Source: the human T2T-CHM13v2.0 reference genome, Homo sapiens
DNA: 64,000 nucleotides
Assembly: GCF_009914755.1 (NCBI RefSeq)
Contig: NC_060933.1
Strand: one strand, 5' to 3'
Shown: positions 3,782 through 35,759 of the stretch, piece by piece
Numbering within the stretch: position 1 is the first letter of the stretch
How the letters are laid out: every line of letters starts with the position of its first letter
Notes under the pieces: model-generated
Databases searched by the model: none
Told to the model about the DNA's origin: nothing
Seen by the model: the letters and a program-made list of their open reading frames with translations, nothing else
Translations under genes and position numbers: made by a program

Positions 3782-5494
3782 AGGTTCCTGAGCTCTGGGA
3801 AGCCATACCAATGTAGCGCCTGCAGTATTCCACATGACTGGGCAGCACCGCTTTTCAGCTCACTTTGGTTGGGTCTGTTCATCCACCTCTTACAGAATTA
3901 ATCCTTTATTAATGTTTTTTATTTTTTTGTTTCTATGGCAAAAGGTTCACCCAAAGGCCATTACTGAGCTTTGCTACAAACTCTGGATATCCACATTCAG
4001 CACTACTGAATTGCTAAGGCTGAGCAGGGAGGAAGCCAGTTGTAACTTTAGTATCAGATAGACCTGGATTCAAAAGCCAATTCTGCCACTGACTAATGTG
4101 TCATCTGAAGCAAAAGGCTTAACTTCCTTGAGCCTCAATTTGCTTATTAGAAAAATGGGGCTGAGACCTACCCCTTGCAAGGCTGTTATGAAGATTACTG
4201 AGACGACATGCGTGAAGCACCAATTACGGCGCCTGGACTCACGAGGCGGTGGGCCAATGCGTCCCTTCTCCTCCCGGCACCTCTGTGTATCTGTTCCCTC
4301 TTGTGGGGGCAAGGAAGACAGTCTATTAATTCGTTCTGCAGCATTTGCTTTGTTCTAAACCCATCTCTTTCAAAACTCAAGGGCTCTCTGGTTTCTTGTG
4401 CTGGAGGCTGAGGAATGGGAAGGCAGCTGGGCTTCCCTCATTTCACACAAGAGGATTAATAGACTTTGATCAAACCCTCCTCAGCCTTTATCTTCCCAGC
4501 CTGAGAAGCCTTCATCTCTCCCATCTGTCTTCATACACCCCTCAACCCAAACTCTGCCACTTCTCTGATCATATGAGCAGGCCTACAGGACAGTTGGGCA
4601 GATCTGAGTTCAAGTACAAACTTAACACTCCTGTGTGATTTGGGCCACATCCCTTGATCTCTTAGAGCCTCCATTTTTTCAGCTCTAGAAAAGCTATTAA
4701 TAGACCTCACCTATTTTCTGGAAAGACAGTATTACTTTGCTAGAGCACAGTGCATCCTAGGCCATCCATTGGCCTCTCATGCACTATGATGCTGCTCTCT
4801 TGCCCAAGACTCAGCAAACAGCTTTCTTTCCCCACACTCTTGAATGTGGCATCCAAGGCTCCCAACTGCTTCTCCAGCCTCAACTCTTGCTAATCCCTCC
4901 CACCTGCCATCATTCTTGCCATGACAGTCCCTTGTTTTACCTGAACACTCCCATCTTTCTGATACACAGCCAGGCCTTTGGACATGGATCCCTCTACCTG
5001 GCCTACCTGTGGATCCCTTTGCCTCGTGACTTTCTTCAAGGGCCACCTTCAACAACACTCATCTGTGAAGCTCTTCCTGACTATCCTCCATAGAACAAGC
5101 CACTCCTTCTCCAGGCCCTTACAACCCCACATACATCCCTAATGACAACCTCATCCCCCCTGCACTGCAAAAGTCTGTATCTGCCTCTCCACTAGGCTCA
5201 CTTCTCTGGTTGTGCCACTCACCTTGGGAGAGTCTTTTCACCTCACTCAACTGTAGTTTCTTCACTTATAAAACAGAATAATCCTTGAAGTTCAATATGG
5301 TGCCTGGCACACAAGTTGGGCACTTCAGTCAGTGCTGGTTCATTGATTCAGGCAGTTCCGAGACACCACCTTCTGCCAGAGCCTCAGCAACAGAATTGAG
5401 GTGGGTGTCAGCTATGAGCAAGAGACACAGGTCTGAAGGCACAAGCCGGCGCCTCAGGACACGCCATCATCCCTCCCCAGAACCCCAGACAAGC

Positions 5495-5547
5495 TTCACA
5501 GACAGATGCCATGTGCAGAAGGATTCACATTTATTGGTTCAAATACA
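5495..5547 (-). terminator. Polyadenylation signal of NR6A1
   Basis: Minus strand reads TGTA (5547-5544), AATAAA (5535-5530), CA dinucleotides ~16-18 nt later, then GU-rich TCTGTCTGTG. Confidence 0.8.
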
Positions 5548-7852
5548 GTACCTAACACTTGCTAAACATGCATTTCACACTAATTGGTCACATTTCCACA
5601 GGTAGTCAATTCACAGAACAGGGCCCATCCCTTGCCAGCTGGCAGGGTGGGAGGTAGCAGAGGGCCTGGGTAGCCTGCAGAGCCCGCCAGCTATCATTTG
5701 GTCATGGAGGGTTGATGGAGTCAGGCTGGCGGGCAGCCCTTGGCCGGCCCTTTGGAGACAAGGGCTCAGGGACATCCCGTTTCCTCGATTCCTACACACA
5801 GGACTGTGGGTGGAGGTGGACCTAGGGCAGGTAACCTGGGGGTAGGCTCGTGGATGTGTGTGCCACTAGAGCCCTTAAAGGTGGTGTCTGTGGGAGTGGT
5901 GCTCCCTATGCCCTGGAGCACAGGAAGGAAATGGAGGCCTCTTCAGGGGGGTGACTAGTCCCTGGCTGGGTAGGTGGGAAGGAATCCCCAGACACAGCCC
6001 AGACATCACAATGCAGCCACCAGCCCCTATGGCAGACCTGGGATGGCAACACAGACAAAAACACCAACACCCCAGGGCAGGCGGGGCTTCTTTCCCGACA
6101 GAAACATGTAAACAGAGCAGGAGCTACAGTATTCTTTTCCCACAGGATTCCTCAGAGAGGAATCGACCAGGATGTCGCTTAAGAGGTAGTTTTTTTTTTC
6201 TTTTTCATGGAAATTTGAATCAACAACATTATCACCTATTACAAGACATTTTAGAGAAAGAAAACAATGGTCATTAAAGGGCAAAGACGGCAGGGCTAGA
6301 TCTGGGGGACTAGCCTCCACCCATAACACAACTTTTGTTCTTGGGCTTGGAGCAGGCTCTGACCTTACTCACCGCCTCCCTTTGAGCCTACAGTTGATTC
6401 CTGTGCAGGCTGTGGTCCATTTAGGGCTTCAGGCCCAGAAGACGGATGCTAGATGGGAACTGGGCTAGACAGAGGGACCAGGCTTCTATGAGCGGGGAGA
6501 GGCAGGGCCACCGTGGCTCGTGTCGTAGGACAGCTAGAAGCCTTCAAGTCTCATGGTGGCCCAGGTCTGGCCAAAGCAGAAGCCCCAGCTTGCTCCAGAC
6601 TTGGCAGGCTCTCTGGAGTTCCCGCCTTGGAGGAAACAGTTCAGGTATGGCTCCCAAGCCCAGAAAAAATGTTGCTGTGGCAGCCTAGAGAGGAGTTTCT
6701 GGGGATCCTGTAATTAAATACACATCCCTGAGCTGTGGCCCCAGAAACCCTTGTCTCCAGGCTAACCAGTTTCCAACACTTGGTGGAATGACTGCCGTTT
6801 CTCATCCTGACACACAGATAAAACATCATTTCACAGATACTGGACATAGATGCTTCAAGCCAAGGAGAAAGGGAGGATGATCAGTTGCAAAGGCAGAGGG
6901 GAGTGCAAGGGAACTCTCATGGGCTGGGGTAGGGGGAGGCAGGGGAGTAAGAGTAGCGGATTTTTTTGTTAAATTTTGTTTGTTTTTTGGGTTTTTTTTT
7001 TTTTTACTTTAAAAAAATCAATTAAAAATTCAAAGCTTAATAAAAGGGCTGGTCTGAAAGACTGGATTCTTAAAATAATTGCAAAAATTTCAAAAGCAAC
7101 AAGGAAAAAAGATACACACCAGGGGCCCAGAGAGGAGGGCCTGGAACCACAGCTCAGCTTTCTGTCCTGCTGAGAGGCCAGGGTTCCCTTAATTCGACCA
7201 ACCTTGGACATGGCTTAGATGCTGCCCACAGTGGGTTTGTCTGTCTCCATCAGTCCCATTCCCCCAGGAAATCAAGAACAAACAAACAAATGTAGGAAAT
7301 GGGTAACAGAGCAATGCACCTAGCTCAGAGCCCAGGATTTTAAGGATCTGGTAACAGTGACCATGGCAGGTACTCACCTCCCTGAAAAAGGGTGGCAGGT
7401 GAGAGGCAGGTTGATGTGGAGTGGGTGACATTCAGTGATGCCACAGAAACCCTTAGGATTCCCCATTCCTTGCTCTGGTTCTGGGAAACAGGACAGGGAG
7501 GATCCTGCTTACTTCCTCCTATCCCTGGGGGCTTGCCCACCTCTCTTGTGAGTGGGGCATAGGGGCTGGGTGTCCTCTGAGCCAGGTTGAGCGCTTTGAG
7601 ACAGATTCTGGGGAATTTCTCCAGATTAACGACGAGACCACCAAACCTTGCAAAGGACTCCAAAAGTCTACAAAGGCAGCCAGAGAGCATGAATAAGTTC
7701 CAAGATGCCAAACTTTTGTCTTGGGACAAGAAAACATCAAAAAGGAGAGGGAGGGAAAGGCTTGCATGTTTCAATGTAGTGCAAGGAGGTGGGATTCTCC
7801 TTTTCCATGTAGCTTTCAGAGTCGTATTTTTATGGCATAAAAATTCTCACTC

Positions 7853-8171
<319 letters not shown>

Positions 8172-9179
8172 TCAAAGTGAGTGCTTTTGGTGGTTGGGGA
8201 TCAGAGAGAGGGCAGAAAGAGAAATTAGAGAAAACATGCACAACTTTTCTCTCCTTCCACTCGCAAAAAGGCTACCTGTTAACCAAACATTATGGGGAAG
8301 AAAGCAAAAAACAAACACACCAAACCTCCCCTCCAACCTTTCTCCGTGTCCTTCAAACCAAATTCACAAATACATCTAGTGGCTGACCTAATGTCTCCAC
8401 GCTGCTAGCTACACTCCTACCTTCTCCTCATAATACCTGAGTTTGCAATGCAACACATTCACTTTACCCTGTTTAAAAAAAGCCCACGTCATAAAAGGAC
8501 TGGTGCAGAAGACATTAAAGACGGTCCACAGGTCAGGCTCCGGCTCGGAACACACAGCCACTTTGCTCTGAGATTCTGCAGGGCTCTCGGCAATGAATGG
8601 GCTCTTTGTTCTGTGGAATCTGCTGCAAACATTTGTAAAACTGGATTTGTACAATGGCAACTTGCAGAACCTTTCCCCTACTCCACAAATTAACAACTTG
8701 CTCTGTTCAATACTACGTTGTTGGAGAGACATGTTCTTGCCTCATCAGAGAGCAATTTCTTTTGACACCCAACACAACGGGTAAAATGTTTAATTTGAAA
8801 AGCAATTTCAAAAATAATAATTGGACAGATAGAGGCCTCAGCAAAGAACGATGCTGTACACAGGAGCTGTCTTAGAGAAGGCATCTGTGATATGTGTCTC
8901 CTTCCCGATCTGGAGGAAAGCAGCTCAGAGTCTGACCTGTGGCCAAAGAATGTGATCTAGTTGGTTAAATAAAATTCAGGGGAACAAGTATCGTGAACTT
9001 AGAAATAAACAGATACACACGAACACACAAGAATCTTCCCACTGACGTGAAAAACATGCTAGCTGGAGCTTTTCCTGAGGAACATGTCTCTTCCTTCTCA
9101 GAGCAACTGGGGAAACGGCATTGAGGAGTAATGTTCCGAGTTTTAGATCCATCAAGGGCCAAAATCATCACTCTGCTGG

Positions 9180-9187
9180 TACCCGTA
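9180..9187 (-). promoter_or_regulatory. miR-99/100 8mer site
   Basis: Plus TACCCGTA = mRNA UACGGGUA; a rare CpG-containing seed match. Confidence 0.75.
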
Positions 9188-9507
9188 ACATTTCACCAGA
9201 AAGAAACAATTACAATCAGACATGGACTACCCAGTATGCACACGACGTGGTGCCCTCCTGGGTAGCTTTACTAGGTTGAGTTGAGGAGACAGCAAACAGC
9301 CTTTGACTAAATAGGCAGAAGAAGGTGCCGTGGGCCCTTCCAACCTACCCAGGCATGCAGCCAACTAAGTGGTCTGCTTGCCACACTGGCTGTGAAAGAT
9401 ACCTGGGTGTAGGCAGGACAAGCACCTGAAAGAGTTCAAAGACAGACCTGGTGTAGCGCTGGCCAAAGTCAAGAGGGTAAGGAACACGTCCTGGGATAAG
9501 GTGGGGC

Positions 9508-9710
9508 AGGTAGTGAGAGGTCAAGGAGTCCAGGCCATGTCTGCAGAGGTAGCAGCCGGGCCATTAGGAACCTGAGGTAGTTTAAAGCCCCCCTTCCCTT
9601 CCAGGTGCTTCTGGCTCCAGCCCTCCAGGCCTTGGCTGGCCAGTCCACTGCTGAAGTAAGGGGCAGCTGAGCCACTCTGGGCCTTGGGCTTTGTGTCCTG
9701 GGTCCCTGAG
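9508..9710 (-). promoter_or_regulatory. miRNA site cluster: miR-196 (9508-9514), let-7 7mer-m8 (9546-9552), let-7 8mer/miR-196 (9573-9581), miR-125 8mer (9703-9710)
   Basis: Plus-strand AGGTAGT, GAGGTAG, TGAGGTAGT and TCCCTGAG at these positions. Confidence 0.75.
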
Positions 9711-10544
9711 GAAAACTGGTCTCACTCTGGAGAGAAAAGGAGAACTTGGAGAAGAACTTAGGGGCAACATTTCTGGTCAGCAGACAGGTGAATGGTCCTT
9801 CTCATTGTTTAAAAAAGCCTGAAGTTTTCGGATTTAGACCTGAGGGTGCGGTAGGAAGGGGAGGGGAGAGGAACAGATTTCAAAAGGGGAGTGTCTATTC
9901 TTTTTGCAGTCTGGCCTTGCCCTACTACCCTTTGAAGAAAACAAGGTGAAAGGAGAATAAATCAGTAGTGGGCACCAGGCTTCAGAACATGGCATTCTGC
10001 TCAGCTGGTTTTTCAAAGGGCCAATAGGAAGTCAAATGTGTAAGGGAGTGGGAAGGAGGAAGGTGGGCCTCAGGAGATCCAGGTAAGGAAACTAGGTAGC
10101 TGGGGGCCCCGAGGGAGCTGGGAGGCGAGTCCTGTGGATCAAGTGATTGCCAGGACTTTGCCTAGATGGAAAGTTCGCAGTGGTAGACAATGATGGTGGT
10201 GCAGGGGTAAGGGGGGCAGCAAGGTGTGAGAACAGAAATTCTTCTGCCCTTAGGACTTGTTGGGTGGAAGGACACCTGCCTTAAATATGGTCACTGTGCC
10301 CCTACTCTCTTAATTTTCACGCTTTCCAAGGAAAGGACGTGGCTCAATCCTCACCTCCTACCCTGTTGCCGTCTCACCAACCTTGCTTAGTGAATCTCCT
10401 AACAACACTTTGCCCCCTTACAGTGTGCCGTTTTATCTGGCAATTCTGTGGCTAAAAAAGGCAATTTGCTCTCTGACAGACAAATGTATGAGTCTGCTGA
10501 GAAAATGTGGAAAAAGTAGGGATGGCCACACCCCCCATTTCCAT

Positions 10545-10553
10545 TGAGGTAGT
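10545..10553 (-). promoter_or_regulatory. let-7 8mer overlapping miR-196 7mer-m8
   Basis: Plus TGAGGTAGT = mRNA ACUACCUCA. Confidence 0.8.
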
Positions 10554-10736
10554 CATCTTTGTCAACATTATGGAAATAGTCATCTTAGCCCCATCCCACC
10601 CTCTCCCTCAAAATACAAAAGAACTATTTCTAAACAATGACAACACTGTAACATTAAACATCTTCACATTCTGTAAACTGTAAGAAAATGCATTGGCTGC
10701 ATTCACACAAAAGCATGTGCATCATGTTGAAGGCCA

Positions 10737-10757
10737 TACATTCAACTCTGTCGTGAA
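10737..10757 (-). promoter_or_regulatory. miR-181 8mer site with extensive 3' pairing
   Basis: Plus strand TACATTCAACTCTGTCGTGAA aligns to miR-181a-5p AACAUUCAACGCUGUCGGUGAGU, so the mRNA is its complement. Confidence 0.85.
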
Positions 10758-10939
10758 ATAAATATATAGAAAAATGAGGTTAAAAAAACAGACAAACAAA
10801 CAAAAACTCTTCTTGCTATGGAGGCAACGGGAAATGCTGCTCCACAGCCTCCATCTTGGTCTCTCTGGCTTTTCCCTCCAGAGCCTGTCCTGCCCACCCA
10901 AGACGCTGTGGTTGGCCTGAGGAGGGCGCCTGGAACAGG

Positions 10940-11028
10940 TCATTCCTTGCCCACACTGGTCTTGCAGGAATGCAGCACCACCTTAAAGAGGAGGGGCAGC
11001 TGCTCCAGGGGCACATTCACCATCTTTC
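10940..11028 (-). CDS. NR6A1: NR6A1 last exon, coding part (89 nt including TGA)
   Basis: (G)KMVNVPLEQLPLLFKVVLHSCKTSVGKE*. Acceptor CCCAG| at 11029-11030, stop TGA at 10942-10940. Confidence 0.97.
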
Positions 11029-11629
11029 CTGGGAACAAGGGGGGAGAAGAAGAGTTAGCAGTGGTCACTCTAGTGGACAGGCAAGTCAGCCTCCTTGGGC
11101 TGGTGGAGGCAGAGTATCACCTTGCTGAGTGACTGGGGCAAGAGAAGTGCCAGGAGTATCACAAAGGTTGGACACACTGGGCTAACATCCTAACATCCAG
11201 ACCCCTTTGGGTGCCCAGGGAGCCTAGTAATGGTGCCAACTCATCATCATTCTACTACTCAGGGAATACTTAACTCTGTTCTAGGTGGTTAAATGCATTA
11301 CCTCGTTGAATTCTCACACTATTTCTGTGTACTACTTTTTACCCTCATTTTATAGATAAGGAAGCTGAAACTGACAGGTAGTCCAAAAAACTTCTGTCCT
11401 GTTTTCTTCACCCCCTCAACCCCCGGTAGATTTTCTAAGTAATATTCTATAAAATATTGCACTTCAGAATGGTTTAATAGGTTAATAAAAGTACTAGGGG
11501 AAAAAGAAGCAGGGGTAAAGAGGCAAATACATTTGAGAAACTCAGGGTTAAAAGAGCTTTACAGATTTCTTGATTGAAGGACTTCTCAGAGCATTCAGTG
11601 TGCTAATATAATTTATAAATACCTAAGGC

Positions 11630-11820
11630 TGTGTTTCTTCTGGCAAACAGTACCTCTGAGTGACCTGGGGAGCCGTTCGAAAACACTGATTATCTCCAGG
11701 CTCTACCCCATTCCAATTAAACCAGAATTCTCCAGGTGCAACTCAAACATTGATTTTTTTTTTTTTTTTAAGTTTTCCAGGTGATTGGAAGTGCCGCCAA
11801 GGCTGAGGACCCAGTTCTAT
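11630..11820. mobile_element. MER5-like hAT-Charlie DNA transposon relic
   Basis: Diverged similarity to MER5 segments (...CCAGGTGATT...AAGGCTGAGGACCCAG). Confidence 0.5.
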
Positions 11821-12364
11821 GGAGGAGAGTGGCATGTAATTGTTGACTTCCTTTTATTTCACAGAGTGCCTGCTTAATATCTCATGTGGTAAACTCTAGC
11901 TTAGAAAATACTGAGACAAACTGTCAAAATATCCCTAAAATTCCAATAGTTTAGGCCCAGCTCACATTTGCTAGACTGCTTTGTGGCCCAAGAAATAGAA
12001 AAAAAAATTCCCTTGTCAGATTGAAATAATTTTCCTTTAAAATCGTATTGCTTTCTCCAGAATTTTTATGTTGAATTAAAAAACTGTATTGCTGAATTTT
12101 ACAGGAAGAATCCCGGTCTATAGGTCACATTTCTGAGCTGCCCCTCAGTATCTGCTGGACAGCCAGAACAAGAATCTTTACCACATGAAGCAAGGCAACA
12201 ACCAAAAAAGCCAGGATTTTATATTGAAATAGACCTATTTAAATGTCAGAAAGCTCAGAAGGGGTCAAGACCACATAGAAACATACATACATACACACAC
12301 ACCCCAATACATAAAATTCCTCTGCAAATACAGGATTTTAAACTTTATTTTTCCTATTCTTATT

Positions 12365-12955: not shown

Positions 12956-13108
12956 CTGCAATATATCGAATCTCAGGTAAGCACATCATGAGATCAGGAA
13001 AGCGGTTCGGCTGATGTGTGTATTTATATTCAGTAAAATCCTGGCAAATGTACCAGTATCGTTTATTCAATTGTTCCAGCTGTGAGGCACTGGTCAGACC
13101 CCTGATAT
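12956..13108 (-). CDS. NR6A1: NR6A1 exon 9 (153 nt): LBD
   Basis: (D)IRGLTSASQLEQLNKRYWYICQDFTEYKYTHQPNRFPDLMMCLPEIRYIA(G). Acceptor (TG)6T12CCACAG|, donor |GTAAC. Confidence 0.97.
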
Positions 13109-14559: not shown

Positions 14560-15017
14560 TGCACCCCTGCTCTGCCCTGAAGGGGCTGTCAGAACCACTG
14601 CCAGCCTGTCACAGAGGCCTTATCTCCAACAGTTTCATCAGTCACTCTGCTCTTCTTCAGTCACTGGTAAACTTGGTACATATTTAAAATGACGCATGTA
14701 CTGTCCTTGGTGTCTGTGTGCAAATGCATTAAAACTGACTAAACAAAGCGAATCCTCTTCCTTCCTCTATGAGTTATAGAGATTGTGGCATTTCAGTTTG
14801 AAGAAAAAAAAAAATCCAAAGCATTCTCGCATTCCCTGTACTATAAGGGTCAGGGTGATGACAAGGGGGTGCACAAGTCTTCCTGGATTGAAACCCAGAT
14901 GGTGTGATGGATTCTGTGTGATAGTCCTGAGGGTAAGGAGGGGTGAAACAGGAGGGCAAATGCTCACTGCCTGCCTCCCGCACTGCAAACGTCCCTTTTC
15001 CCACCCCAGCCACTCAC

Positions 15018-15139
15018 CTTGATTTAGGAAGTTAATTGCTTTCATGCAAGCATACTCCTCGTTGCTGACCTTTAGCTGATGGAACTTGTGATAGAGGTAG
15101 ATGAGCCGCTCGATCACCTCCATCCCTTCATCACTAAAT
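15018..15139 (-). CDS. NR6A1: NR6A1 exon 8 (122 nt): LBD
   Basis: FSDEGMEVIERLIYLYHKFHQLKVSNEEYACMKAINFLNQ. Acceptor CTCAG|, donor |GTGAGT. Confidence 0.97.
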
Positions 15140-29129: not shown

Positions 29130-30440
29130 CAAATAGTGCTGGGAAAACTACATCCACATGCCCCGCCCCCAGCCCCCAAAAGACATCGACCCCTTATACC
29201 GTTCACAGAAGTCAACCTCAAAATAGATTAAATATTTAAATGTAAGACCTAAAACTATAAAACTCCTTGGAGAAAACACAGGGGAAAATCTTCATAAAAC
29301 TGGTCTTGCCAGTGATTTCTTGGATACAACACCAAAAGTACAGACAACAGAACAAAAACAGCCAAGTGTGACTACATTAAACTAAAAAGCTTCTGTGCAA
29401 CAAAGGAAACAATCAACAGGGTAAAAAGATAACCTATGAAATGGGAGAATATATTATCATACATTTGATAAGGGGTCAACATCCACAACATACAAGGAAC
29501 TCCCATAACTCAGGAACAGAAAAAAAACAAAACAAAACCCACTGAAAAATGAACAAGAAACTTGAACAGACATTTCTCCAAAGAAGACAAATGACCAATA
29601 GGTATATAAAAAGATGCTCAATATCACTTATCATCAGGAAAATACAAATCAAAACTTGAAGATATTACCTCACACCTGTTATGTCTGTTGTATGTAAAAG
29701 AACACAACAACAACAAAAAAACCCCAAAACAAACAAACAAACAAACAAAAAACCAGTCCAGAAAATAACAAGTGCTGGTAAGGATGTGAAGAAATGGAAA
29801 CCCTTGTGCACTGTTAGTGGGAATGTAAAACGGTGCAACCACTATGGAAAACAGCATGGAGGTTCCTCTAAAAGTTAAAAATAGAAACACCATATGATCC
29901 AGCAATCCCATCTATGGGTATTAATCCAAAAGAACTGAAATCAGGATTGTGAAGAGATATCTGCACTCCCACGTTCACTGCAGCATTATTCAAAATAGTC
30001 AAGAAGTGAAAACAATTTAAGTGTCTGATGACAGAGAAATGCATAAAGAAAATGTGATATATACATAAAACACCTTAAAAAAGAGGAAAGTCCTGTTATA
30101 AGCTATACCAAGGGGGAACCATGATGACATTACACCAAGTGCAATAAACCAGTCACAGAAGCACAAATACTGCATGATTCCACTTTATGAGGTATCTAAA
30201 GTAGTCAAACTCTTATAAGCAGAAAGTGGAATGGTGGCTGCCATGGGCAAAGGGAGAGGAAAATGAGGAACTGCTGTCTAATGAGTATAGTGTTTCAGTC
30301 ATGTAAGATGGAAAAGTTCTAAAGATTTGCTGTATCAGAGTGTGTATATAGTTAACAACACTGTACTGTATAATTAAAATTTTGTTCAAAAGGTAGATTT
30401 CATGTTATATGGTTTTTACTTCTGCCATAATAAAAAAGAG
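29130..30440 (+). mobile_element. L1M (MA/MB-type) LINE: ORF2 end and 3'UTR
   Basis: AATGTAAGACCTAAAACTATAAAACTCC, GACTACATTAAACTAAAAAGCTTCTG, CCATATGATCCAGCAATCCCA; no intact ORF. Confidence 0.9.
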
Positions 30441-34360: not shown

Positions 34361-35759
34361 TGTTCATCTTCTTCCTCGACCCCACCCAGAGTAACAAAAT
34401 ACGTATATGATAGAAATCTACTATGTGTTACATACTGTTCTCTGAGGTAAAATCACTCATGAGTAAAGTATTAGTATCACTCCCATTGAACAGATGGATC
34501 TAAGGCTCACAGAAATGAAGTATTTTGCTGGAAGAGACAGAAACTAAAGAGCAGAATCAGGGTTGGAACCCACACTATCAGACTGTAAGACCAGACTTCT
34601 TTCTACTACTACTATGTATGCATCCTAGTGGAGAAACATAAGATACTTTTAGGTGGTGCATAAACTCTTAATTATACATTCTTAATTATTAATTATTCTT
34701 AAATTATACATTTATTCTGATGTGCAACTCACATGGCAAAATGTTAACAATTGGTGAATTTGGGTAAAGGGCAGATGAGAATTCTTACTACTGTTGCAAA
34801 TTTTCTGTAAGCTTGAAATTACTTCAAAATAAAACAGAACAAAGTTTTAATGAGGTGGTAAAGAATTGCCTTTAAAAATTAACTTTGATTTTTAAAAGTT
34901 ATTGAAAGACTAATATAAACAGCAGTACCCATTTAGAGATGATAAAATCGGTCAAGATGCCATGAAACCACCTGAAGTGTGGAAATCAATACAATGTGCC
35001 ACACTGCCTCTGTTAAAAACAAAAACTTGGACCATATTTTCAAACTTATAATGTTCTTGCACATATGTATGTTATCTCATGTGATCCTCACAACCACCTT
35101 GGAAGGTGTATTATTCTCCCACGCATTTTTGAGATGAGGAAACAGAGCTCAGAGAGGTAAAGAGATTTGCTCAGGGAAGAACTGACAGAGCTGGAGTTTC
35201 CATTTAGATCTTCTGATTCTAAAGCTGTACTTGTTCCTTGATGCCATACTGAACTAACAAGTTTTTCAGCAGGGCTAAAATCTATTTGGCAGTGATTTGA
35301 TTAAAAAGAACAAATGGCTCCTGTGTGCAGTATTACAGGAATGGTTCTGCTGTAACTCTTATCTAAGTCTAAGAAAGAGAATGGCCCTAGCCATGGCTCT
35401 TCTATCTTCTCAGAAGGCACCACAAACACTTTTTCTGCTTTGGAACTCATATGCCTACCATTCTTCATTTGCTTGGGCTTAGGCAGTCAACAAAACCCAG
35501 AAACCATAAATAACAAAGCTAACTACATCAAAGCTCCACTCAAAACCTGTCGGTGGTGCCTTTGGTTCATGGGCCAAATCTAAGCTCCTTAGCATGGCAT
35601 TCAAGACCATCTATCATCTGGTTCTGGTGGGACCCCTCATCCTCATCTCTTGCCATAAATGCTATACCCTACATGTAGATAACTATTTGTTAGTCTTTAA
35701 ACATGCTATTCTGTTTTACATAGTTCTGTCTCTGCATATGTTGCCTGTACTCAGAAAGA

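What the first reader, a model, noticed from the sequence alone, without database searches (positions are those of the whole stretch)
10726..10758. Near-full-length miR-181 complementary site in the NR6A1 3'UTR: possible miRNA-decay (TDMD) trigger or local feedback loop
Seen: ~185 nt past the stop codon the plus strand reads T-ACATTCAAC-T-CTGTCG-TGA-A. Against miR-181a-5p (AACAUUCAACGCUGUCGGUGAGU) the mRNA gives an A1 anchor, Watson-Crick pairs at nt 2-10, a single G:A mismatch at nt 11, pairs at 12-17, a bulged G18, pairs at 19-21 and a G:U at 22. That is 18 Watson-Crick pairs, far beyond an ordinary animal seed site. With miR-181b the duplex becomes seed + central mismatch/wobble (9-11) + 3' pairing. 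A 6-bp hairpin (GTTGAA 10726-10731 / TTCAAC 10741-10746) partly covers the seed match. Further miR-181 7mers lie at 7428-7434, 8455-8461 and in the CDS at 11013-11019. Established: AGO2 slices between nt 10 and 11; seed + central mismatch + extensive 3' pairing is the geometry of ZSWIM8-dependent target-directed miRNA degradation; MIR181A2/B2 lie within an NR6A1 intron outside this window. Inference: NR6A1 mRNA and its resident miR-181 cluster may be mutually antagonistic, either through strong repression/slow slicing or through miR-181 destruction when NR6A1 is abundant. I do not know whether this extended pairing has been characterised.
Basis: partly seen in the sequence, partly recalled or inferred. 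Interest (0 to 1): 0.85.

Follow-up and report, generated by a model that had tools for sequence, protein, structure and literature searches.

The report
Known extended miR-181 site in NR6A1
The NR6A1 3'UTR carries a real, non-random, near-full-length match to miR-181a that was predicted in 2004 and reporter-tested in 2012, most likely acts as a repressive target site, and has not been tested as a trigger of microRNA decay.

Summary
At window 10737-10758 the NR6A1 mRNA pairs with miR-181a-5p at nt 2-10, 12-17 and 19-21. There is an A opposite nt 1, a G:A mismatch at nt 11, one bulged G and a G:U at nt 22 (duplex -25.2 kcal/mol).

It is not chance. The pairing pattern occurs 3 times in the genome: the two MIR181A genes and this site.

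An unbiased scan found only two seed-intact near-full-length sites on the mRNA-complementary strand of the UTR: this one and a near-perfect miR-129-5p site at 9900-9920.

It is not new. John et al. 2004 ranked NR6A1 the second-best miR-181a target and noted that miR-181a lies antisense in its intron. A 2012 paper cloned this exact 22-mer and saw 18% reporter repression with miR-181b.

Best reading: a miR-181a/c-preferring response element that represses NR6A1.

The TDMD idea is open but weak:
- The 3' helix has only 6 contiguous pairs.
- The central gap is 1 nt.
- No ZSWIM8 data I could read name miR-181.

A preprint does claim NR6A1 mRNA triggers TDMD of miR-129-5p. Slicing is disfavoured by the nt 11 mismatch. 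Vertebrate conservation could not be tested with these tools.

The parts
10737..10758 (-). Extended miR-181a/c complementary site in the NR6A1 3'UTR. A opposite nt 1 (10737); nt 2-10 (10738-10746); G:A mismatch at nt 11 (10747); nt 12-17 (10748-10753); one G of the miRNA bulged; nt 19-21 (10754-10756); G:U at nt 22 (10757); U:U at nt 23 (10758).
   Evidence: Genome-wide uniqueness. The printed 22-mer 'NR6A1_1' in PMC3505728 is this site.
10737..10744 (-). 8mer seed match (mRNA UGAAUGUA), the only miR-181 8mer in the UTR.
   Evidence: One search lists site types. print the letters.
10734..10769 (-). Predicted local hairpin. The seed match pairs with the upstream A/U-rich CUAUAUAUUUA tract (11 bp, 3 of them G:U) plus a 3-bp extension. 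A 6-nt loop ACGACA exposes part of the 3'-pairing segment.
   Evidence: in the MFE of 161 nt. (-10.6 kcal/mol, z -3.29, 1 of 200 shuffles as good). (RNAplfold P(unpaired) of the seed 1.3e-4, 2.7th percentile). One search is milder: opening the seed costs 6.6 kcal/mol, and 15% of 150 random windows cost as much or more.
10726..10746 (-).
   Evidence: Sequence. Energy -3.9 kcal/mol and absent from the MFE.
8455..8461 (-). miR-181 7mer-m8 seed match, no notable extra pairing (-13.7 kcal/mol).
7428..7434 (-). miR-181 7mer-m8 seed match, no notable extra pairing (-12.6 kcal/mol).
10666..10671 (-). miR-181 6mer seed match.
11013..11019 (-). miR-181 7mer match inside the coding sequence.
   Evidence: + strand ACATTCA.
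9900..9920 (-). Second near-full-length site in the same UTR, for miR-129-5p. nt 1-8 paired, G:U at nt 9, nt 10-15 paired, G:G mismatch at nt 16, nt 17-21 paired. -34.6 kcal/mol against -40.1 for a perfect duplex.
   Evidence: A preprint claims NR6A1 mRNA triggers ZSWIM8-dependent decay of miR-129-5p. It shows its site only in a figure I could not see.
5509..10939 (-). NR6A1 3'UTR (5431 nt), the last exon shared by all 6 RefSeq transcripts. Canonical poly(A) hexamers only at 8789-8794 and 5530-5535, so the site lies in the part common to all isoforms.

Best explanation
This is a functional microRNA response element of the extended kind. It has an 8mer seed match plus pairing through nt 9-10 and a second helix at nt 12-21, so it binds miR-181a and miR-181c much better than miR-181b and miR-181d. 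AGO loaded with miR-181a/c binds it and represses NR6A1 mRNA by the ordinary TNRC6-dependent route (deadenylation, decay, translational block), together with two weaker miR-181 seed sites further down the UTR.

MIR181A2/B2 are transcribed from the opposite strand of an NR6A1 intron under their own promoter. The arrangement therefore wires the antisense transcription unit of the locus to silence the sense mRNA. This fits the published theme that NR6A1 must be cleared on time by several microRNAs.

Shown: the pairing, its non-random nature, its preference among family members, and weak reporter repression by miR-181b. Inferred: occupancy in cells, the size of the effect on the endogenous mRNA, and the circuit logic.
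For: Pairing and member preference: (-25.2 and -24.6 kcal/mol for a and c; -19.7 and -17.5 for b and d).

Not chance:
- 3 genome-wide matches, two of them the MIR181A genes.
- None of the 5 other loci within 3 mismatches of nt 2-22 lies antisense in an annotated gene.
- 15 of 1,000,000 seed-anchored Markov contexts do as well.
- Seed sites are enriched in the UTR, P = 0.011.
- In the scan of 11,543 21-mers from 172 precursors, the only seed-intact hits within 3 edits on the mRNA-complementary strand of the UTR are miR-181a and miR-129-5p. Both start at the mature 5' end as I recall it. The other strand of the UTR has 0. There are about 15 loci in the remaining 117 kb.

Context: A/U-rich flanks (72% against 51% for the exon) and a position in the UTR part common to all isoforms.

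Literature:
- The exact 22-mer gave -18.27% luciferase, p = 0.0152, with miR-181b (PMC3505728).
- Nr6a1 is cleared by miR-196 and probably let-7 (PMC10909835 and PMC9755267).
- Nr6a1 rises in Dgcr8-deficient neural progenitors (bioRxiv 10.64898/2026.10.02.755877).
- TGF-beta raises the antisense lnc-Nr6a1/miR-181a2/b2 unit and lowers NR6A1 in keratinocytes.
Against: - The only experiment is a small effect with the weaker-pairing member on an isolated 22-mer.
- In thymocytes, 3' supplementary pairing limited repression at long-seed miR-181 sites. Long consecutive pairing merely 'did not fully abolish repression' (PMC11317165). Stronger canonical repression therefore does not obviously explain why the extra pairing exists.
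- That study's main text has 0 mentions of Nr6a1.
- The seed is predicted to be partly hidden in a hairpin.
- Energy alone is not rare (143 of 127,958).
- I could not test conservation of the non-seed part. The 2004 ranking does not say which site in the UTR it rests on.
Confidence: 0.5

Rival explanations
1. TDMD trigger. Extended pairing of NR6A1 mRNA with miR-181 pulls the miRNA 3' end out of the PAZ pocket. ZSWIM8 ubiquitinates AGO and miR-181 is destroyed. NR6A1-high cells thereby lower the miRNA made from the gene's own antisense intronic unit. This could act together with repression as a double-negative switch.
For: - Seed plus a second helix at nt 12-21; my approximate MFE ratio to an 'optimal TDMD' duplex is 0.83 for a and 0.92 for c.
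- The same UTR holds a second near-full-length site, for miR-129-5p. A preprint reports that NR6A1 knock-down raises miR-129-5p only when ZSWIM8 is present.
- Extra pairing did not improve repression at long-seed miR-181 sites, which leaves room for another purpose.
- A circRNA with 'TDMD-like' miR-181b/d sites changes their abundance (PMC11014252).
Against: - The TDMDfinder criteria are not met by any member. The longest 3' run is 6 Watson-Crick pairs (at least 7 needed). The central gap is 1 nt for a (2-8 needed). The energy ratio is 0.60 and 0.56 for b and d (at least 0.7 needed).
- The helix is broken by a bulged G and does not reach the last nucleotide.
- No text I could read names miR-181 as ZSWIM8-sensitive. 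The EMBO J 2026 ZSWIM8 study has 0 mentions of miR-181 or NR6A1 in its main text. The TDMDfinder paper has 0 of each. NR6A1+TDMD finds 1 paper, on miR-129.
- Supplements were closed, and the two 2020 Science papers did not appear in any listing.
- The seed is predicted to be partly occluded.
Confidence: 0.2
2. Neutral coincidence. A conserved or chance seed site happens to have good flanking complementarity, with no function for the extra pairs or for the site at all.
For: - The energy-only null is modest (143 of 127,958).
- Across all conserved miRNAs a handful of such sites is expected transcriptome-wide. This is my arithmetic from 1.5e-5 per seed site and an assumed few thousand seed sites per miRNA.
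- The reporter effect was small.
- Other loose miR-181-like stretches in the window look like chance.
Against: - Genome-wide uniqueness.
- Two in-register extended sites in one 5.4-kb UTR, where I estimate about 0.03-0.06 expected.
- Seed enrichment.
- Retention of a CpG inside the pairing segment, although the pattern is strongly depleted genome-wide (9 matches against 30 for the reversed control).
- The coincidence with the gene that harbours MIR181A2.
Confidence: 0.17
3. AGO2 slicing site. miR-181a or miR-181c directs endonucleolytic cleavage of NR6A1 mRNA between the target bases opposite nt 10 and 11 (10746/10747), as miR-196 does on HOXB8.
For: Contiguous pairing of nt 2-10 and a second helix. 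John et al. 2004 discuss near-perfect sites as likely cleavage targets.
Against: - There is a purine-purine G:A mismatch at nt 11 for miR-181a, a target bulge exactly at the scissile position for miR-181c, and open nt 9-11 for b/d. By established knowledge, mismatches at nt 10-11 strongly slow slicing.
- 0 papers hold NR6A1, slicing and Argonaute together.
Confidence: 0.05
4. Relic of common origin. The + strand stretch is a decayed copy of a mir-181 hairpin arm, or the miRNA arose by inverted duplication of this UTR segment. The match would then be historical rather than selected.
For: The miRNA-sense reading is on the same strand as MIR181A2, in the same locus. One of 12 flank comparisons was high (2 of 300 shuffles).
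Against: - Rfam mir-181 (RF00076) finds all 6 MIR181 genes at 51-82 bits. It gives no match at E up to 10 at the site, either in a 7-kb or a 301-nt search.
- 11 of 12 flank comparisons are no better than shuffles.
- There is no partner arm.
Confidence: 0.03

Closest known systems
Published miR-181:NR6A1 target prediction and reporter test (John et al. 2004, PMC521178; Carroll et al. 2012, PMC3505728)
   Same: Same gene, same miRNA family. In the 2012 paper the printed 22-mer is exactly this site. The 2004 paper also notes that miR-181a is encoded antisense in a GCNF/NR6A1 intron.
   Different: Neither passage I read describes the pairing geometry, member preference, hairpin, TDMD or slicing. 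The 2004 text does not give the site coordinates. The 2012 test used miR-181b only.
NR6A1 mRNA as proposed TDMD trigger of miR-129-5p (bioRxiv 10.1101/2024.03.12.584463)
   Same: Same 3'UTR, and another near-full-length site about 820 nt downstream in the mRNA (9900-9920).
   Different: Different miRNA. The miR-129 site is closer to perfect (one G:U, one mismatch). The ZSWIM8 dependence was shown by siRNA in a preprint. Nothing comparable exists for miR-181.
Endogenous TDMD triggers (CYRANO:miR-7, NREP:miR-29b, Serpine1:miR-30b/c), as summarised in PMC8887481
   Same: Seed pairing plus a second region of complementarity to the miRNA 3' part.
   Different: Those have a central unpaired linker and a long uninterrupted 3' helix. 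Here the gap is 1 nt for miR-181a, and the 3' helix is 6 + 3-4 pairs broken by a bulge.
HOXB8:miR-196 near-perfect slicing site (recalled; mentioned in PMC521178)
   Same: Near-full-length complementarity in the 3'UTR of a developmental transcription factor. miR-196 also regulates Nr6a1.
   Different: HOXB8 pairs across the scissile position. The NR6A1 site is mismatched or bulged there for every miR-181 member.
Intronic miRNA aimed at its own locus or a paralogue (SLIT1 targeted by miR-218 from a SLIT2 intron, PMC521178)
   Same: The miRNA gene lies inside the gene family it targets.
   Different: MIR181A2/B2 are antisense with their own host gene. The coupling is therefore between two opposing transcription units, not host-gene co-expression.

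Membership tests
Canonical miRNA response element (seed site with 3' supplementary pairing) | Watson-Crick match to miRNA nt 2-8 with A opposite nt 1 | tested here: met
   8mer UGAAUGUA at 10737-10744.
Canonical miRNA response element (seed site with 3' supplementary pairing) | Lies in the 3'UTR of the mRNA, on the sense strand, well past the stop codon | tested here: met
   UTR nt 182-203, in all 6 RefSeq transcripts.
Canonical miRNA response element (seed site with 3' supplementary pairing) | The miRNA represses a reporter carrying the site | tested here: met
   Literature only: -18.27%, p = 0.0152, with a miR-181b mimic on the isolated 22-mer (PMC3505728). miR-181a and c were not tested.
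Canonical miRNA response element (seed site with 3' supplementary pairing) | Conservation of the seed match in other vertebrates | not testable with these tools
   No vertebrate genomes were on hand. Indirect evidence: the 2004 pipeline keeps only sites at least 90% identical in mouse or rat, but the text does not name the site.
Canonical miRNA response element (seed site with 3' supplementary pairing) | AGO occupancy or miRNA-target chimeras at the site | not testable with these tools
   Supplementary tables were closed. The thymus chimeric eCLIP paper has 0 mentions of Nr6a1 in its main text.
TDMD trigger (TDMDfinder criteria, PMC8887481) | At least 7 consecutive pairs in the 3' complementary region | tested here: not met
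   the longest run past the centre is 6 Watson-Crick pairs (nt 12-17), then a bulged G, then 3 pairs and a G:U.
TDMD trigger (TDMDfinder criteria, PMC8887481) | Central unpaired region of 2-8 nt | tested here: inconclusive
   1 nt for miR-181a, a 1-nt target bulge for c (not met), 3 nt for b and d (met).
TDMD trigger (TDMDfinder criteria, PMC8887481) | Energy at least 0.7 of an optimal TDMD duplex | tested here: inconclusive
   my approximation of their reference: a 0.83 and c 0.92 (met); b 0.60 and d 0.56 (not met). No single member meets all three criteria.
TDMD trigger (TDMDfinder criteria, PMC8887481) | ZSWIM8-dependent rise of the miRNA when the trigger site is removed | not testable with these tools
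   Experimental. No text found that reports it.
AGO2 slicing target | Pairing across nt 10-11 at the scissile phosphate | tested here: not met
   G:A at nt 11 (a), target bulge between nt 10 and 11 (c), nt 9-11 open (b, d).
mir-181 precursor (Rfam RF00076) | Match to the covariance model (hairpin with both arms) | tested here: not met
   No match at E up to 10. Positive control: 6 of 6 MIR181 genes match at 51-82 bits.

The most novel reading that the evidence does not exclude
The NR6A1 3'UTR is a two-site hub of near-full-length microRNA complementarity. It carries the genome's best gene-embedded complementary match to both miR-181a-5p and miR-129-5p. As I recall, both are differentiation-associated miRNAs.

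In this reading it works as a bistable switch. When NR6A1 mRNA is abundant it destroys these miRNAs through ZSWIM8, including the miR-181a made from the antisense strand of its own intron. When the miRNAs win, they clear NR6A1.

The predicted hairpin over the miR-181 seed could gate which outcome prevails.
Probability: 0.13. Interest if true: 0.75.

Novelty: already known. Interest (0 to 1): 0.38.

Why it matters
NR6A1 controls trunk elongation and exit from pluripotency, and must be switched off on time. A 2024 review names the co-regulation or anti-regulation of Nr6a1, its antisense transcripts and miR-181a2/b2 as an open question (PMC10909835).

The site gives that question a concrete, mutable handle. 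It is 22 nt that link the antisense unit's product to the sense mRNA.

What is new here is context rather than the site itself:
- The site prefers miR-181a/c over b/d.
- It is unique in the genome.
- Its seed sits in a predicted hairpin.
- It shares the UTR with a near-perfect miR-129-5p site already claimed as a TDMD trigger.

If both sites turned out to be decay triggers, NR6A1 would be a rare protein-coding mRNA with two of them.

Tried and rejected
Relic hairpin. Rfam scans of 5000-12000 and 10600-10900 gave no mir-181 match. The model finds 6 of 6 real MIR181 genes. Rejected.

Shared origin by duplication. I compared 80-nt flanks of the site with the flanks of the six MIR181 arms. 11 of 12 comparisons were no better than 300 shuffles, and one was at 2 of 300. 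Not pursued.

Energy as a measure of rarity. It gave only 1.1e-3 (143 of 127,958). I therefore used edit distance and genome-wide patterns instead. The weak energy result stands against the site.

BLAST of precursors against the window. It was dominated by long low-identity Alu-like alignments, so I replaced it with the 21-mer edit-distance scan. That scan used 172 of the 192 miRNA genes numbered up to 230.
- 10 of 130 regions (chr22 in part, chrX) were never fetched, to keep one call in reserve.
- Two regions were cut at 10 kb.
- miRNA genes numbered above 230 were not examined.
- 'In register' rests on mature 5' ends that I recall and did not verify by any tool.

Other miR-181-like stretches. 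The ones at 35535-35557 (+) and 29179-29223 (-) gave no Rfam match. The second has no 3' arm in the alignment. I treat both as chance.

It could not be done. No tool here holds vertebrate genomes, and G000 has no relatives in the genome collection.

Literature.
- NR6A1+miR-181: 80 papers, 25 listed.
- The same with luciferase and UTR: 13 papers.
- ZSWIM8+miR-181: 28 papers, 25 listed.
- NR6A1+TDMD: 1 paper.
- target-directed+miR-181+degradation+CLASH: 9 papers.
- The site's letters: 1 paper.
- TDMDfinder: 4 papers.
- NR6A1+slicing+Argonaute: 0 papers.
- NR6A1+miR-129: 21 papers, 15 listed.

I read passages only, except section 14 of PMC3505728 and section 43 of PMC11317165, which I read whole. 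PMC9498520 I saw only as a listing and abstract. PMC10899785 could not be opened. Supplementary tables were closed; these may hold CLASH or eCLIP chimeras, ZSWIM8 knock-out miRNA lists, TDMDfinder predictions and the 2004 target tables. They may already contain miR-181:NR6A1 entries. Hits that did not bear on the question: PMC11648932 (the match was miR-1817), PMC9880601, PMC10761092, PMC11110387 and PMC11763446.
Full report
What is there.

The + strand at 10737-10758 reads T ACATTCAAC T CTGTCG TGA AA. NR6A1 is on the - strand, so the mRNA carries the complement, UUUCACGACAGAGUUGAAUGUA. This is UTR nt 182-203 after the TGA stop at 10940-10942.

I did not trust a remembered miRNA sequence. I took the six annotated MIR181 genes from the genome annotation, fetched them and read the shared 5' arms. 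Only the exact mature ends are from memory.

- nt 2-10 are paired.
- nt 11 faces an A (a G:A mismatch).
- nt 12-17 are paired.
- One of the two Gs at nt 17/18 is bulged.
- nt 19-21 are paired.
- nt 22 is G:U and nt 23 is unpaired.

That is 18 Watson-Crick pairs and -25.2 kcal/mol, 61% of a perfect duplex. The other members give:
- miR-181c: -24.6 kcal/mol, with a 1-nt target bulge in place of the mismatch.
- miR-181b: -19.7 kcal/mol, nt 9-11 open.
- miR-181d: -17.5 kcal/mol, nt 9-11 open.

So the site clearly prefers the a and c members.

MIR181A2 and MIR181B2 are indeed inside an NR6A1 intron, about 117 kb beyond the window. They lie on the + strand inside their own host gene MIR181A2HG, so they are antisense to NR6A1.

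Is it more than chance?

- Post-hoc pattern. The pattern nt 2-10, any base, nt 12-17, 0-1 base, nt 19-21 has 3 matches in the 3.1-Gb genome: MIR181A1, MIR181A2 and this site. The reversed control has 0.
- Ungapped matches. nt 2-22 with up to 3 mismatches gives 9 matches, 4 of them MIR181A/B genes. The reversed control gives 30, so this CpG-containing sequence is depleted. Of the 5 remaining loci, 4 are intergenic. One lies in a lncRNA on the same strand, so it is not complementary.
- Flank pairing given a seed. nt 9-21 pair within 2 edits in 15 of 1,000,000 Markov contexts. Among natural 16-mers of the window it is 2 of 127,968, and one of those is the site itself.
- Seed enrichment. 7mer-m8 miR-181 matches in the UTR number 3, against a mean of 0.42 in 2000 dinucleotide shuffles (P = 0.011).
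- Against. By duplex energy alone the site is not very rare. 143 of 127,958 natural contexts joined to the same seed reach -25.2 kcal/mol, because G+C-rich contexts pair well with loops.

An unbiased scan and a second site.

To correct for the many miRNAs a reader might recognise, I fetched 172 of the 192 miRNA genes numbered up to 230. Ten regions were not fetched and two were cut at 10 kb. I compared all 11,543 distinct 21-mers of these precursors with both strands of the window by edit distance.

I kept hits within 3 edits whose positions 2-8 match exactly:
- 3'UTR, strand complementary to the mRNA: 4 pattern hits at 2 loci, miR-129-5p at 9899-9920 and miR-181a at 10736.
- 3'UTR, other strand: 0.
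- Remaining 117 kb, both strands: 28 pattern hits at about 15 loci.

Both UTR hits begin at what I recall as the mature 5' end. Among the other loci only one does, miR-19b-3p at about 14716 in an intron.

From these counts I estimate about 0.7 loci expected in the UTR strand for all windows. For windows in mature register the figure is about 0.03-0.06. Two were seen, so Poisson P is of order 0.001. This is my arithmetic, and the register rests on recall.

The miR-129-5p site (9900-9920) is closer to perfect than the miR-181 one:
- nt 1-8 paired, G:U at nt 9, nt 10-15 paired, a G:G mismatch at nt 16, nt 17-21 paired.
- -34.6 kcal/mol against -40.1 for a perfect duplex.

Genome-wide, only 4 loci lie within 2 mismatches of that 21-mer: the two MIR129 genes, this site and an intergenic chr20 locus.

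So for both miRNAs, the best complementary match inside any annotated gene is in this one UTR.

Structure around the site.

Instead, the seed match pairs with the A/U-rich tract just upstream in the mRNA. This gives a hairpin at 10734-10769, which leaves ACGACA (part of the 3'-pairing segment) in the loop. Its energy is -10.6 kcal/mol, with z -3.29 and 1 of 200 shuffles as good. It is also in the MFE of a 161-nt context, although that context as a whole is ordinary (z 0.20).

Two accessibility measures disagree in degree:
- RNAplfold puts the seed at the 2.7th percentile of the exon.
- A +/-100-nt ensemble calculation gives 6.6 kcal/mol to open the seed. The median of 150 random windows is 4.1, and 15% cost as much or more.
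- The same calculation gives 9.6 kcal/mol to open the full site. The median is 8.5, and 38% cost as much or more.

The site is therefore somewhat, not dramatically, occluded. I could not test the hairpin by covariation.

Not a decayed miRNA gene.

Rfam's mir-181 model matches 6 of 6 MIR181 genes (51-82 bits). It gives nothing at E up to 10 at the site. Flank comparisons with the six loci show no extended homology: 11 of 12 are no better than shuffles.

What is already in print.

John et al. [quoted passage not shown] This is indirect evidence of conservation beyond primates. The text does not say which site in the UTR the rank rests on.

Carroll et al. 2012 (PMC3505728, section 14 read whole) list 'NR6A1_1' with exactly this 22-mer. 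They report -18.27% luciferase signal (p = 0.0152) with a miR-181b mimic. A search for the site's letters finds only that paper.

The developmental literature on Nr6a1 that I read discusses let-7, miR-196 and miR-10 sites. A 2024 review calls the interplay of Nr6a1, its antisense transcripts and miR-181a2/b2 an open question, without mentioning this site (PMC10909835).

How it most likely works.

The simplest reading that fits everything shown is an extended miRNA response element. AGO-miR-181a/c binds it with high affinity and represses NR6A1.

The miRNA genes are antisense and separately driven. The circuit is therefore one transcription unit of the locus silencing the other. It fits that TGF-beta induces the antisense unit and lowers NR6A1.

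A caution applies. In thymocytes, extra 3' pairing did not increase repression at long-seed miR-181 sites, and if anything limited it (PMC11317165, section 43). 'Stronger repression' therefore does not by itself explain why the extra pairs exist. Member selectivity or longer dwell time are possible reasons, and both are inferred.

TDMD and slicing.

The TDMD idea is not excluded, and it gains some plausibility from the neighbouring site. A preprint reports that silencing NR6A1 raises miR-129-5p unless ZSWIM8 is also silenced (10.1101/2024.03.12.584463, passages).

The miR-181 geometry fits TDMD poorly, however. Against the published TDMDfinder criteria (PMC8887481), no family member passes all three:
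- 3' run: 6 Watson-Crick pairs, where at least 7 are needed.
- Central gap: 1 nt for a and c, where 2-8 are needed.
- My approximate energy ratio: 0.60 and 0.56 for b and d, where at least 0.7 is needed.

The 3' helix is also broken by a bulge and stops short of the miRNA's last nucleotide.

I found no text naming miR-181 as ZSWIM8-sensitive. Supplements were closed, and the two 2020 Science papers appeared in none of the search listings.

Slicing is unlikely. In every member the irregularity sits at or next to the scissile position.

Verdict.

As a miR-181 target site it is already known. The decay-trigger interpretation is an untested extension that the geometry only partly supports. The most interesting new point is that the same UTR holds two genome-unique, near-full-length miRNA sites.

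My confidence in each reading:

| Reading | Confidence |
|---|---|
| Repressive extended site | 0.50 |
| TDMD trigger | 0.20 |
| Neutral coincidence | 0.17 |
| Slicing | 0.05 |
| Relic of common origin | 0.03 |

Noticed in passing
window 9900-9920 (- strand mRNA): A near-perfect miR-129-5p complementary site: one G:U at nt 9 and one G:G mismatch at nt 16, -34.6 kcal/mol. It is one of only two non-MIR129 loci in the genome within 2 mismatches. It pairs through the centre, so it looks more slicing-like than the 'central mismatches' described in the preprint that calls NR6A1 a TDMD trigger of miR-129-5p.
   Followed up: partly
window 10734-10769 (- strand): A predicted hairpin in which the miR-181 seed match pairs with the upstream A/U-rich tract, leaving part of the 3'-pairing segment in the loop (-10.6 kcal/mol, z -3.29). 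The A/U-rich arm contains an AUUUA core, so an ARE-binding protein could compete with the hairpin. That last point is a guess.
   Followed up: partly
window 35535-35557 (+ strand, NR6A1 intron): A 12-nt exact match to miR-181c nt 8-19, preceded by a 6-of-7 match to the seed region after a 2-nt insertion. No Rfam mir-181 match. Probably chance.
   Followed up: partly
window 29179-29223 (- strand, NR6A1 intron): The first part matches the 5' flank and basal stem of pri-miR-181a-1 within 2 edits per 21-mer (33 of 45 columns over the whole BLAST alignment). The mature part is degenerate, there is no 3' arm, and there is no Rfam match. Probably chance.
   Followed up: partly
window about 14716-14738 (+ strand, intron between exons 12956-13108 and 15018-15139): A seed-intact match within 3 edits to the 3' arm of MIR19B1, starting at what I recall as the mature miR-19b-3p 5' end. 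It is complementary to the NR6A1 pre-mRNA intron.
   Followed up: no
window 7848-8173 (3'UTR): The only masked repeat in the 3'UTR. It gives Alu-type Rfam matches below gathering score (Metazoa_SRP, mir-1268, mir-3135).
   Followed up: no
genome-wide: A multi-copy sequence (many loci with the same 3 mismatches) resembles the miR-129-5p arm. This suggests a repeat family with miR-129-like content.
   Followed up: no
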